NCBI RefSeq assembly: GCF_022846255.1
Contig: NZ_AP025682.1
Origin: Escherichia coli
GTDB lineage: Bacteria; Pseudomonadota; Gammaproteobacteria; Enterobacterales; Enterobacteriaceae
Length of the DNA: 64,000 nucleotides
Reading direction: 5' to 3' (one strand)
In this document: positions 12,001 through 15,000 of the stretch, one piece after another
How positions within the stretch are numbered: position 1 is the stretch's first letter
Layout of the letters: every line of letters starts with the position of its first letter
Program-made: the position numbers

Positions 12001-15000
12001 CCTGCATCGACTCGTCATCATAATAGCCAGTGCTCTCCATAAAGGCCGAAAAGTCGGCCCTGTCTGCAAATTTGAGTGTTAAATCTTTCATTAGATTGAC
12101 TCCCCCACCTGAGCATCAGTCAATGCCTTGTGCCATATTCTGAAATTCCTGACATGACCAAATAAATGACGTAACCCGGCAGTAGTCTGGCCTCCAATAC
12201 GGATAATTGCGGTGTTCTGAATACAGGACCATGTGGTTTTTGTTTCGCTGGATATACGCCCGTTACTTACTGAGCACGTAGACTGATCTGACTTTACACG
12301 CATCCCCATAACCATTTTTTCAAGCGATGCGTTTTCGTTTACCCGTCTGTTAGCTCCTCCAATATCGCAATAAGGAAATCCGTCGTAATCTGTTGAACGA
12401 CCGAAGCCAAGAATAATAGCCGCTCCGGTTTGATGACCGCCGGTGTCAAAAACACGCGGAGCTGCATTTGGCGTTTTATACCAGTTCTTATGTACCTCAC
12501 AAAGAACCGTAAAAGGAAGATTATAAAGATTATTCTTAATGGGAACTGTAACTATATCGCTTGCGCGGGTCGCCGCCGTCGTTCCTGATATAATAAAAGA
12601 TGATACACAAGGCCCATTTTCTACTTGTGGGGTGGCCAGATAAATATAGTCACCAGATACGGTTGCCCCGCCCTGCTTAGGAGAATACTGTATCTGAGAA
12701 CCTATTTTTAACTCCCCATCAATTGCCTGAATTGTTGCCTCTGCAAAAATCCATCCGGTAGCTTCGTCCTTTCTGACTCTCGCAGTAATCCTTGAGGCAG
12801 CACCGCCTGTCATATTAATTTCAAGCGTTTGTGTATCAATATACGCATCACCAAGAAAAGTTGTTGCGCTACCGTCATATTTATCAAACCGGATACGCAA
12901 CCTTACCTGCAGTTCTGTTTTAAAACGACATGAGGTTGTCACGTGTTTATTATCGCCTGAGACATCAACTGACTTTGTTGCAGCAATTGATGCCATATTA
13001 ATGGCTGAGGTTTGCCCAATCAGAGAATCGTTGCAGACAAACTTTCCATAGGTAAAACCAAAACTATCCGTCCCTGTTTCGGGCACATCCATATTTGACG
13101 ATCGCCCCCAACTGGCAGGGTTTTCCGAATTGAGCATGTAGTTTGTTCTTTGCCCCTCAATAAGCAGGCCATCACGTTCAAACCGTGGCTCGTCAATGGC
13201 AGCCTCTGTCAGCACACCAGATTTATTAATGTAAGTTGCTTTTGATGCGCGTTTAAACTTTACAACCTTATCGCCAGGCATCGTTATTTCATCATCACCA
13301 ATAACAATCTTTTTATATGACGGCGAAAAGCCCGTAATCATATCCAGTGAATCGTTAAACGGTATCCACACATCGGGAAGCGGCTGCAATACTTGTTTAT
13401 ACGGCTCCGCAGCCTGGCTTGCATACTCTCTGGCTGCGTCTTCACTTGCTTTTGCAGCCGTCTGGCTTGCAGCGGATGCTTTCGCCGAGTTAGCCGCCGC
13501 AGTCTCGCTCGCCTTTGCGTTGGTTTCACTGGTTTTTGCAGCTTTTTGACTGTTGGCTGATGCAGTGGCAGAAGCAGCCGCCGCGCTTGCAGAGCCAGCT
13601 GCAGCACTCTCGCTTTCGGCTGCTGCATCCTGACTGCTTTTCGCCGCAGTTTCACTGGCTTTGGCATTCGTTTCGCTGGTTTTCGCTGCCGTCTGGCTGG
13701 ACTTTGCGTTGGTTTCGCTGGTTTTTGCAGCTTTTTGACTGTTGGCTGATGCAGTGGCAGAAGAAGCCGCCGCACTTGCAGAACCAGCTGCAGCACTCTC
13801 GCTTTCGGCTGCTGCATCCTGACTGCTTTTCGCCGCAGTTTCACTGGCTTTGGCATTCGTTTCGCTGGTTTTCGCTGCCGTCTGGCTGGACTTTGCGTTG
13901 GTTTCGCTCGTCTTTGCGGCTGTCTCGCTGTTTTTCGCATTGGTTTCTGATTTTTTGGCTGCTGTCGCGGAGTTTGCCGATGCAGTCTGTGAGGTCGCTG
14001 CCGCCTGTGCGCTGTTAGCTGCATTCGTTTCTGAGGTTTTCGCCGCGTTCTTCGATGATGCCGCTGCAGTTTCGGATTTCTTTGCCGCCGCTGCGCTCTG
14101 AGAGGCGGCTTCGGCGTTGCGTGCCGCTTCTTCCACCATTTCCTGAAAACGGCGCAATGCCTCCGGCATGACATCATCTTCCGTCATGGCACCGAGAAAA
14201 TCATTCAGCGTCCCCGGACTGGAACCTTCATAGACGGTAATGGTCCCAACATGTGATGGCTGAGAACCCTCAATCCACAGGATGACGCTGTACTGACCAT
14301 ACTCAACGTCCATACTGTAACGCCCGGCTTCATCAGGATTTTCAGAGGTCACCGTGTTCACCAATACCGTGGTGCTGTTACGCTTTGCCTTCAGTTGAAT
14401 AGTGCAGTTCTGTATTGGTTTTCCCGCACCATCTTTCAGCACACCTGAGATTTTTACTGCTGCCATATCCACTCCACAAAAAAGCCCGCCTGAACCGGCG
14501 GGCTGTCATAACACTGTGTTACCTGGCTAATCAGAACTTATAACCGACACCCACGATGAAACCGTCAGTGCGCCAGTCGCCACTGCCGGAGCCTTCATAA
14601 GCAATATCAATGGCCACGGATTCGGTCGGGTTAAACTGCACGCCAGCTCCCCACGCCAGAGACGTGTTGCTGTGGCGATCGTCATCACTTCCGGTCAGCA
14701 CATCGTGCGTTTTCCCCTTGTTGTCAGTTACGCGGAGATAATCCCCGGAGAACGTCGAAACACGGCTGTAAGCCACACCTGCCATCGCATAAGCACTGAA
14801 CCATTCATTCACGCGTACAGATGGCCCCGCCATCATGCTGAACCAGCGGTTACGCACTGAATCTTCATGCCAGCGGGTATCGCTGTAATGCGTTTTTTGC
14901 TCATCTTTGGCATTGGCATAACTGAATGACGTCACCAGCCCCAGCGTGTCCGTAAACTCATAACGGTATTTCACGTTAATCCCGTTCAGATCATCGCTGC

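What the first reader, a model, noticed from the sequence alone, without database searches (positions are those of the whole stretch)
13517..13894. Exact 189-bp tandem duplication inside the side tail fibre gene
Two near-identical 189-bp units encode a duplicated 63-aa Ala/Ser/Thr-rich segment of the Stf shaft, with a diverging partial third copy. This is a recent in-frame duplication that lengthens the fibre, and it also generates the spurious antisense ORFs in the track.
Basis: seen in the sequence. Interest (0 to 1): 0.3.

Follow-up and report, generated by a model that had tools for sequence, protein, structure and literature searches.

The report
Repeated segment in phage tail-fibre rod
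A 189-base segment repeated twice, in frame, inside a prophage side tail fibre gene adds nine seven-residue turns to the fibre's coiled-coil rod; it is real but ordinary, because most related phages already carry two copies.

Summary
The repeat is real. Window 13517-13705 and 13706-13894 are head-to-tail 189-nt units that differ at 4 positions (97.9%), so they are not exact. They lie in frame in the minus-strand side tail fibre gene stf (12091-14466, 791 aa) of a lambdoid prophage.

Each unit encodes 63 aa, which is nine heptads of an uninterrupted Ala/Ser-core heptad region. [quoted passage not shown]

The two-unit layout is not new to this genome. It is the usual state in related E. coli prophages and isolated phages. 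One-unit alleles exist, and no three-unit allele was found.

In typical relatives the two units are only 83% identical. In a sub-lineage they differ at 8-12 nt, and here at 3-4 nt. This window differs from its closest relatives by a 35-nt tract in the upstream unit that now matches the downstream unit.

The best reading is therefore an old duplication that has been recently homogenised, most likely by gene conversion, rather than a fresh duplication.

The other-frame and antisense ORFs are by-products of composition. The duplication lengthens them but does not create them.

This is ordinary and of low interest.

The parts
12091..14466 (-). stf, side tail fibre gene (791 aa; ATG at 14466; the mechanical ORF starts at GTG 14472)
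   Evidence: ORF list and translation. PF08400 phage_tail_N at 2.1e-63. PHROG 1419 'tail protein' matched end to end, 2-791 of a 793-position profile. Relatives are annotated from MAAVKISG. The exact protein is WP_244331532.1 / BDH33928.1.
14071..14460 (-). N-terminal tail-attachment (collar) domain, aa 3-132
   Evidence: PF08400 covers aa 3-132. Matches PDB 9e7m chain Ta, the Ur-lambda tail tip complex 'Tail fiber protein', at E 3.5e-46 over aa 3-95 and by Foldseek at E 6e-9.
13411..14112 (-). Uninterrupted heptad-repeat region (aa 119-352, about 33 heptads) forming the predicted coiled-coil rod
   Evidence: Heptad table: Ala in 30/34 at one core position and Ser in 32/33 at the other, spaced 3 and 4 residues apart. 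The AlphaFold2 monomer gives helix for aa 102-351, at low confidence. The equivalent region is a trimeric coiled coil in the literature (PMC12617516, PMC3368898).
13720..13908 (-). Unit A, the upstream (N-terminal) unit in codon register, aa 187-249.
   Evidence: It carries a B-like sequence here, whereas the A-position unit of typical relatives differs from B at 31-32 nt.
13531..13719 (-). Unit B, the downstream unit in codon register, aa 250-312.
   Evidence: It is identical over 189 nt to unit B of E. coli SBF22, CFSAN018748, E400634 and 3-72.
13792..13826 (-). Window-specific tract in unit A (CDS 641-675) that matches unit B here but differs at 5-6 sites in the closest relatives; a candidate gene-conversion tract
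   Evidence: Window against L001, L009 and L011: within CDS 600-1000 all differences fall in 641-675. These are exactly the sites where L001-type unit A differs from unit B.
13891..13920 (-). AAKTSETNAK motif copy at the start of unit A (direct repeat 1)
   Evidence: In one-unit alleles the unit is flanked by this motif as an imperfect direct repeat of about 33 nt with a 15-nt exact core, 189 nt apart.
13702..13731 (-). AAKTSETNAK motif copy at the A/B junction (direct repeat 2)
13513..13542 (-). AAKTSETNAK motif copy just after unit B (direct repeat 3)
12562..13164 (-). C-terminal beta-sandwich, lectin-like domain (aa 435-635), the presumed receptor-binding part
   Evidence: NCBIfam NF048003 GTA_spike_fiber at 7.6e-14. 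Block-mean pLDDT is 76-94 over aa 451-610. Foldseek hits Pseudomonas phage Pa193 and E217 tail fibres and lectin folds.
13515..14018 (+). Spurious antisense ORF (167 aa, TTG start)
   Evidence: No Pfam match. Its length is not conserved: 174 stop-free codons here, 111 and 90 in one-unit alleles, and broken in phage 2G7b. Variable sites fall 12/11/70 by codon position in the stf frame.
13338..14177 (-). Spurious same-strand ORF in another frame (279 aa)
   Evidence: No Pfam match. Its length tracks the shaft length in relatives.

Best explanation
The feature is an in-frame tandem repeat of a 189-nt unit (63 codons, nine heptads) inside the coiled-coil rod of a lambda-type side tail fibre of a lambdoid prophage inserted between torT and torS.

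The rod is a long run of seven-residue repeats with Ala and Ser at the core positions. A whole number of heptads can therefore be added or removed without breaking the helix register.

The duplication is old and is the common state in related phages. It most likely arose by slipped mispairing or unequal recombination between the AAKTSETNAK-coding direct repeats that flank the unit.

In this genome the two units have recently been made nearly identical by intragenic gene conversion, in steps. A sub-lineage first replaced the 3' part of the upstream unit with the downstream unit's sequence. This genome then converted a further tract of at least 35 nt.

The inferred effect is a rod about 9 nm longer than in one-unit alleles (63 residues at about 0.15 nm rise each). 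The long stretch of perfect homology should also make this allele more prone to future loss or gain of a unit.

Shown: the repeat, its frame, the heptad pattern, the copy number in relatives and the mosaic pattern of the units. Inferred: trimeric coiled-coil structure (from homologues), the length effect, the conversion mechanism and its direction.
For: - Repeat and frame.
- Above heptad background: 186/189 observed, against at most 134/189 in block shuffles.
- Gene identity and context (J, lom, stf).
- Heptad core of Ala 30/34 and Ser 32/33 with no register break over about 33 heptads; helix predicted for aa 102-351.
- Ur-lambda Stf residues 102-393 are described as a proximal trimeric coiled coil (PMC12617516).
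- The Ala/Ser-rich PCoil of EHEC prophage fibres was shown to be trimeric and alpha-helical by CD and SEC-MALLS, with length differences in multiples of seven (PMC3368898).
- Two units in relatives: shaft of 253 aa in 44 and 240 aa in 57 of 120 related proteins, with one unit (190 aa) in 7. The nine full-coverage places sampled among 973 E. coli records covering at least 80% of the shaft query span 962 nt.
- A synthetic three-unit query found only two-unit or shorter places in the top rows from 5,426 complete E. coli genomes and from 50,697 phage records.
- Unit A versus unit B differences: 31-32 nt in 2G7b, PhiR63_1, ev207 and PhiR46_1; 8-12 nt in seven E. coli prophages; 3 nt here.
- L001-type unit A keeps A-type markers at unit positions 82, 86 and 102, while its 3' part is B-like.
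- The window differs from those relatives only in CDS 641-675 within an otherwise identical CDS 600-1000.
- An imperfect direct repeat of about 33 nt flanks the unit in one-unit alleles.
Against: - Gene conversion and 'collapse to one unit, then re-duplication plus later recombination' give similar end states, and the direction of change is inferred from only 15 sampled loci.
- No trimer model or solved structure of this rod exists. The AlphaFold2 monomer has low confidence (mean pLDDT 54.7).
- No data here show that rod length affects adsorption.
- Some relatives have shaft-length differences that are not multiples of seven (4, 12, 13, 30, 41 and 68 aa). Strict heptad conservation is therefore not absolute, or those draft or partial proteins are unreliable.
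Confidence: 0.8

Rival explanations
1. This is a fresh duplication. A one-unit ancestor duplicated its single B-type unit recently in this lineage, through the flanking AAKTSETNAK direct repeats, and the few differences arose afterwards.
For: The units are 97.9-98.4% identical. One-unit alleles with a B-type unit exist in E. coli CB209, E. coli MSB1_4I and phage IdasGreatGrand. Suitable flanking direct repeats exist.
Against: All of the closest relatives have two units with intermediate divergence of 8-12 nt. Their upstream unit still carries markers of the old A-type unit at positions 82, 86 and 102. The three remaining differences in this window (unit positions 125, 134, 144) are shared with those relatives' upstream units. 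The window differs from them only by one clustered 35-nt tract. This pattern fits stepwise conversion of an existing unit better than a new copy.
Confidence: 0.15
2. This is an assembly artefact: the true sequence has one unit and the assembler duplicated it.
For: A 189-nt near-perfect repeat is within the range that short reads can mis-resolve. Many draft assemblies break inside this gene, since most of the 120 listed homologues are 'partial'.
Against: The two units differ at 4 sites. The gene length of 2376 nt is the same as in many complete genomes and isolated phages. The reading frame is intact. The exact protein is on a 4.94-Mb contig, which indicates a finished chromosome.
Confidence: 0.02
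3. The repeat is a programmed length switch. Near-identical units let RecA-dependent unequal exchange produce fibres of one, two or three units at useful frequency, matching fibre reach to the thickness of the host surface layer.
For: One- and two-unit alleles coexist in nature, and even within one genome (E. coli CB209 has both). There is 125 nt of perfect homology between the units here.
Against: No three-unit allele appeared in the top rows of searches of 5,426 complete genomes or 50,697 phage records. In most alleles the units are only 83% identical, which is poor substrate for frequent exchange. No dedicated recombinase or other switch machinery was seen in the genes flanking stf (lom, J, the downstream fibre genes and the dCTP deaminase), although no targeted search for one was made. 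No population data are available.
Confidence: 0.04
4. The repeat region encodes a real second gene on the opposite strand or in another frame.
For: There are long ORFs at 13515-14018 (+), 13850-14101 (+) and 13338-14177 (-).
Against: None has a Pfam match. Lengths are not conserved, and the antisense stretch is interrupted in phage 2G7b. Variable sites among alleles fall 12/11/70 by codon position in the stf frame, so selection acts on stf.
Confidence: 0.01

Closest known systems
Ur-lambda side tail fibre Stf, proximal coiled-coil domain (Wang et al. 2025, PMC12617516; PDB 9e7m)
   Same: It has the same N-terminal collar domain (79% identity over aa 3-95). The gene sits in the same position after J and lom. 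An Ala/Ser/Thr-rich helical rod follows the N domain, described there as a trimeric coiled coil spanning residues 102-393.
   Different: The C-terminal half is unrelated. Here it is a lectin-like GTA_spike_fiber domain, not the gp37-like distal domain that binds OmpC. The rod here is about 250 aa and contains a clear 63-aa tandem unit.
PCoil domain of EHEC prophage collagen-like tail fibre proteins (Ghosh et al. 2012, PMC3368898)
   Same: It follows a PF08400 N domain with a low-complexity Ala/Ser heptad region. [quoted passage not shown]
   Different: Those proteins continue into collagen triple helices and a PfC domain. A discrete nine-heptad tandem unit and its homogenisation were not mentioned in the passages I read.
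Stf of phages 2G7b, ev207, PhiR63_1, PhiR46_1, HannyBb and Tritos (PHROG 1419)
   Same: This is the same gene family with the same two-unit rod of 253 aa, at 94-95% DNA identity over the whole gene for 2G7b, HannyBb, Tritos and PhiR63_1.
   Different: Their two units differ at 31-32 of 189 nt, whereas here they differ at 3-4.
Size variation of streptococcal M protein by recombination between intragenic tandem repeats (own knowledge: Hollingshead, Fischetti and Scott, 1987)
   Same: It is a fibrous heptad-based coiled-coil surface protein. In-frame tandem repeat blocks expand, contract and are homogenised by intragenic recombination, which changes fibre length.
   Different: It is a bacterial, dimeric and antigenically selected protein. 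It is unrelated in sequence, and frequent size variation has been demonstrated there but not here.

Membership tests
Lambda-type side tail fibre (PF08400 'prophage tail fibre N-terminal' family) | N-terminal PF08400 collar domain | tested here: met
   PF08400 at 2.1e-63 over aa 3-132. PDB 9e7m Ur-lambda Stf at E 3.5e-46.
Lambda-type side tail fibre (PF08400 'prophage tail fibre N-terminal' family) | Gene located at the end of the tail module, after J and lom | tested here: met
   J is at 15198-18677 with seven GpJ Pfam domains, lom is at 14531-15130 (Ail_Lom, 2.9e-128) and stf is at 12091-14466, all on the minus strand.
Lambda-type side tail fibre (PF08400 'prophage tail fibre N-terminal' family) | Same distal, receptor-binding half as lambda Stf (gp37-like, with a Tfa chaperone) | tested here: not met
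   The C-terminal half matches NCBIfam GTA_spike_fiber and lectin-like folds instead. The downstream genes are a 93-aa ORF (phrog_1361) and a 233-aa protein with a Peptidase_S74 chaperone domain. It is a member by its N domain and rod, not a full-length orthologue of lambda Stf.
Lambda-type side tail fibre (PF08400 'prophage tail fibre N-terminal' family) | Assembles as trimers, with four fibres per tail | not testable with these tools
   Known for Ur-lambda (PMC12617516).
Ala/Ser heptad coiled-coil rod (PCoil / Stf proximal coiled coil) | Seven-residue periodicity with small residues (Ala, Ser) at the two core positions | tested here: met
   Ala in 30/34 and Ser in 32/33 at positions spaced 3 and 4 apart. 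Amino-acid self-identity is about 0.5 at every lag that is a multiple of 7.
Ala/Ser heptad coiled-coil rod (PCoil / Stf proximal coiled coil) | Alpha-helical structure | tested here: inconclusive
   The AlphaFold2 monomer predicts helix for aa 102-124, 140-226 and 239-351, but pLDDT there is mostly below 65. Experimental support exists only for homologues.
Ala/Ser heptad coiled-coil rod (PCoil / Stf proximal coiled coil) | Length differences between alleles are multiples of seven residues | tested here: inconclusive
   Differences of 7, 14, 28, 63 and 77 aa fit. Differences of 4, 12, 13, 30, 41 and 68 aa do not. The 13-aa class (240 aa, 57 proteins) also has a different rod end.
Tandem duplication by slippage or unequal recombination between direct repeats | Head-to-tail units with no spacer, in frame | tested here: met
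   Offset is exactly 189 = 63 codons.
Tandem duplication by slippage or unequal recombination between direct repeats | Short direct repeats flank the unit in the unduplicated allele | tested here: met
   In the one-unit alleles L002, L003 and L015 there is a 15-nt exact core within an imperfect repeat of about 33 nt, 189 nt apart.
Tandem duplication by slippage or unequal recombination between direct repeats | Copy-number polymorphism among close relatives | tested here: met
   One unit in E. coli CB209, E. coli MSB1_4I and phage IdasGreatGrand. Two units in most others. Three units were not found.
Phase-variable contingency locus | Repeat changes switch the gene on and off (frameshift), or variants arise at high frequency | tested here: not met
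   The unit is a multiple of three, so there is no frameshift. The frequency of variants within a population cannot be tested with these tools.

The most novel reading that the evidence does not exclude
Homogenisation of the two units has turned a stable old duplication into an unstable one. With 125 nt of perfect homology, unequal exchange could now generate one-, two- and three-unit fibres within a phage population. Rod length, in steps of about 9 nm, would then be a tunable trait matched to the depth of the host O-antigen or capsule layer.
Probability: 0.05. Interest if true: 0.4.

Novelty: already known. Interest (0 to 1): 0.1.

Why it matters
It matters little beyond annotation. The repeat explains why this stf gene attracts spurious overlapping ORF calls, and it may contribute to short-read assemblies breaking or mis-counting inside stf.

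The one modest point of interest is a clean small example of concerted evolution inside a phage fibre rod. An old pair of units (83% identical) is overwritten stepwise to near identity.

If rod length were shown to affect adsorption, the one-unit and two-unit alleles would offer a natural ruler for engineering lambda-type fibres.

Tried and rejected
- **Three-unit alleles.** A synthetic three-unit query against complete E. coli genomes and against phage records found only two-unit or shorter places in the top rows.
- **Other-frame and antisense ORFs.** Pfam gave no matches.
- **AlphaFold2 monomer of the full protein.** Confidence was low (mean pLDDT 54.7) and the rod folded back on itself. I used it only for secondary structure and the C-terminal domain. 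The Foldseek PDB search was informative only for the N domain and weakly for the C domain.
- **Literature.** A search for tandem duplication in tail fibres returned nothing specific to this repeat. A search for the motif 'SASAAA', which I recalled as a fusion point for engineered Stf chimeras, listed no paper containing it, so that lead is dropped.
- **The ranked protein homologue list.** It was dominated by partial proteins from draft assemblies. I used it only for rod length where both rod ends were present.
- **Link between the prophage tRNA-Thr and tRNA-Asn genes and the Thr/Asn-rich rod.** Considered but not tested.
- **Diversity-generating retroelement target.** Not pursued, because the repeat is in the rod rather than the receptor-binding end and the differences between units are not adenine-specific.

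Full report
**Observation**

The sequence at 13517-13894 consists of two head-to-tail 189-nt units. They differ at four positions (13528, 13575, 13585, 13594), which is 97.9% identity. Tandem Repeats Finder reports period 189 and 2.3 copies over 13495-13921, along with nested periods of 21 and 42 nt. The title's 'exact' is therefore overstated, while 'near-identical' is correct.

The repeat is far above the background set by the 21-nt periodicity of the region.
- The best 189-nt window at offset 189 has 186/189 matches.
- Other offsets that are multiples of 21 give 90-116/189.
- 300 shuffles of the 21-nt blocks never exceeded 134/189.

The reported partial third copy is about 40 nt at 13895-13934. 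It is another copy of the AAKTSETNAK-coding motif that flanks each unit. At twice the period, identity is at background.

**What the gene is**

The repeat lies in a minus-strand ORF at 12091-14472. The likely start is the ATG at 14466, giving 791 aa, as annotated in relatives.

| Region | Evidence |
|---|---|
| aa 3-132 | Pfam PF08400, prophage tail fibre N-terminal domain, 2.1e-63. Matches the 94-residue Stf collar chain of the Ur-lambda tail tip structure 9e7m at E 3.5e-46. |
| Whole protein | Matches PHROG 1419 end to end, 2-791 of a 793-position profile. |
| aa 435-635 | NCBIfam GTA_spike_fiber domain. Modelled with confidence as a beta sandwich, and resembles Pseudomonas phage tail fibres and lectins. 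|

Upstream on the same strand are J (15198-18677) and lom (14531-15130). The distal half is unrelated to lambda Stf.

**What the repeat encodes**

Residues 119-352 form about 33 uninterrupted heptads. Ala occupies one core position in 30/34 heptads and Ser occupies the other in 32/33, spaced 3 and 4 residues apart.

One unit is 63 aa, exactly nine heptads, so adding or removing a unit keeps the register. Three of the four nucleotide differences are synonymous, and one exchanges Ser235 and Ala298.

The AlphaFold2 monomer predicts helix through aa 102-351, at low confidence. Published work on homologues supports a trimeric coiled coil.
- Ur-lambda Stf residues 102-393 are modelled as a proximal coiled coil of a trimer (PMC12617516).
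- The Ala/Ser-rich PCoil region following PF08400 in EHEC prophage fibres was shown to be trimeric and alpha-helical. Its allele length differences were reported as multiples of seven (PMC3368898).

At about 0.15 nm per residue, one unit adds roughly 9 nm. This figure is an inference.

**Copy number in relatives**

The stf gene has no match above 97.9% in 5,426 complete E. coli genomes, but 552 records cover at least 80% of it. Nearly all of the 40 best-ranked places have the same 2382-nt length.
- Phages 2G7b, HannyBb, Tritos, PhiR63_1, ev207, PhiR46_1 and PhiR49_1 carry two units.
- One-unit alleles occur in E. coli CB209, E. coli MSB1_4I and phage IdasGreatGrand.

| Rod length among 120 related proteins | Proteins |
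|---|---|
| 253 aa (two units) | 44 |
| 240 aa (two units, one heptad shorter, different rod end) | 57 |
| 190 aa (one unit) | 7 |
| Other lengths | 10 |
| Rod ends not found | 2 |

A synthetic three-unit query found no three-unit place among the top rows from either the E. coli genomes or the phage records. Two units is therefore the common state and not a novelty of this genome.

**History of the two units**

I compared the units from 15 loci.
- In 2G7b, PhiR63_1, ev207 and PhiR46_1, the upstream unit (A) differs from the downstream unit (B) at 31-32 of 189 nt. Most differences lie in the 3' half, so there are two old unit types.
- In seven E. coli prophages (SBF22, CFSAN018748, E400634, 3-72, MARGA_3, JNE21-009, E300010), A differs from B at 8-12 nt. 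Their unit A keeps A-type bases at unit positions 82, 86 and 102, but its 3' part is B-like.
- In this window, A differs from B at only 3 nt in codon register (positions 125, 134 and 144). Those three bases are shared with the unit A of the seven relatives.

Against SBF22, CFSAN018748 and 3-72, all differences from the window between CDS 600 and 1000 fall in a cluster at 641-675 (window 13792-13826). Those are exactly the sites where their unit A differs from B.

This is the pattern expected from stepwise intragenic gene conversion of unit A by unit B. It argues against a fresh copy of B. Collapse to one unit followed by re-duplication and later recombination is not excluded.

Among 50 two-unit rods compared at protein level, this window has the most similar pair, 62/63, against at most 59/63 in the others. 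The exact protein is on record from a single contig of 4.94 Mb.

**Mechanism of gain and loss**

In one-unit alleles the unit is bracketed by an imperfect direct repeat of about 33 nt. It has a 15-nt exact core (GAAACCAACGCAAAG), and the two copies lie 189 nt apart. This is a plausible substrate for slippage or unequal exchange.

In this window the two units share a 125-nt perfect stretch. By inference, this should make future loss or gain of a unit more likely than in typical alleles.

**Overlapping ORFs**

The ORFs at 13515-14018 (+), 13850-14101 (+) and 13338-14177 (-) have no Pfam match.

Among six equal-length alleles, variable sites in the rod fall 12/11/70 by codon position in the stf frame, so selection acts on stf.

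The antisense stop-free stretch is 174 codons here. It is 111 and 90 codons in one-unit alleles, and split into 81 and 90 codons in 2G7b. Composition creates these ORFs, and the duplication only lengthens them.

**Assembly artefact**

This cannot be tested without reads. It is very unlikely given the four differences between units, the intact frame, and identical gene length in many complete genomes and isolated phages.

**Verdict**

This is a real but ordinary feature of a well-populated tail fibre family. The only mildly interesting point is the evidence for recent homogenisation of an old repeat pair.

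Noticed in passing
window 8218-9996 (+): A 592-aa protein with a P-loop N-terminal region and a cytidine deaminase domain sits just beyond the tail-fibre end of the prophage. 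It matches the PADLOC 'dCTPase' model at 5.3e-127. It also matches NCBIfam 'anti-phage dCTP deaminase' at 370.7 bits, just under the 400-bit cut-off. It is likely a defence gene carried as prophage-end cargo.
   Followed up: partly
window 245-7332 and 51233-55133: The prophage appears to split the tor locus. By Pfam domains, a NapC/NirT-type cytochrome c (245-1465), a response regulator (1547-2239) and a periplasmic binding protein (2212-3240) lie on one side. A lambda-type integrase (51233-52306) and a 910-aa ORF (52401-55133) lie on the other. I read these as torC, torR, torT and torS; only torS is named by annotation under matching E. coli genomes. An MFS transporter, a hydrolase and a LysR regulator (3767-7332) lie between the torT-like gene and the phage. 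The flank from 50560 onward matches E. coli at 98.5% at best.
   Followed up: partly
window 36514-36669 (-): The prophage carries adjacent tRNA-Thr (TGT) and tRNA-Asn (GTT) genes. The stf rod is rich in Thr and Asn, but a link was not tested.
   Followed up: no
window 14067-14466 (first 400 nt of stf): The N-terminal collar domain is mosaic. 23 of the 51 differences from the closest allele (E. coli SBF22) fall in the first 400 nt, for example ILWIEGSQPSHVG here against TLLVEGFPPSHAG in relatives. CDS 800-1200 is identical. This suggests a separate recombination event in the tail-attachment part.
   Followed up: partly
window 10798-12091 (-): Three genes lie downstream of stf. The first is a 93-aa ORF that overlaps the stf stop by one base (phrog_1361, no known function). 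The second is a 233-aa protein with a Peptidase_S74 intramolecular chaperone domain; relatives carry a 346-aa version at this position. The third is a 103-aa ORF (phrog_1443). A second, variable fibre component may attach here.
   Followed up: partly
related proteins P0047, P0050, P0051, P0060, P0064 and the 240-aa rod class: Some relatives have rod lengths that differ from 253 aa by 4, 12, 13, 30, 41 or 68 residues. These are not multiples of seven and would break the heptad register. Most of the individual outliers are annotated as partial proteins from draft assemblies. Whether they are real stutters or errors is unexplained.
   Followed up: no
E. coli CB209, NZ_CM144249.1 1328528-1330720 (L002) and 1181272-1182233: One genome holds a one-unit stf allele in one prophage and a two-unit allele in another. 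Exchange between resident prophages is therefore a possible route for unit gain, loss and conversion.
   Followed up: no
L009 798-1256 (E. coli CFSAN018748): An IS200C transposase gene is inserted between lom and stf in the relative with the most similar rod (98.5%).
   Followed up: no
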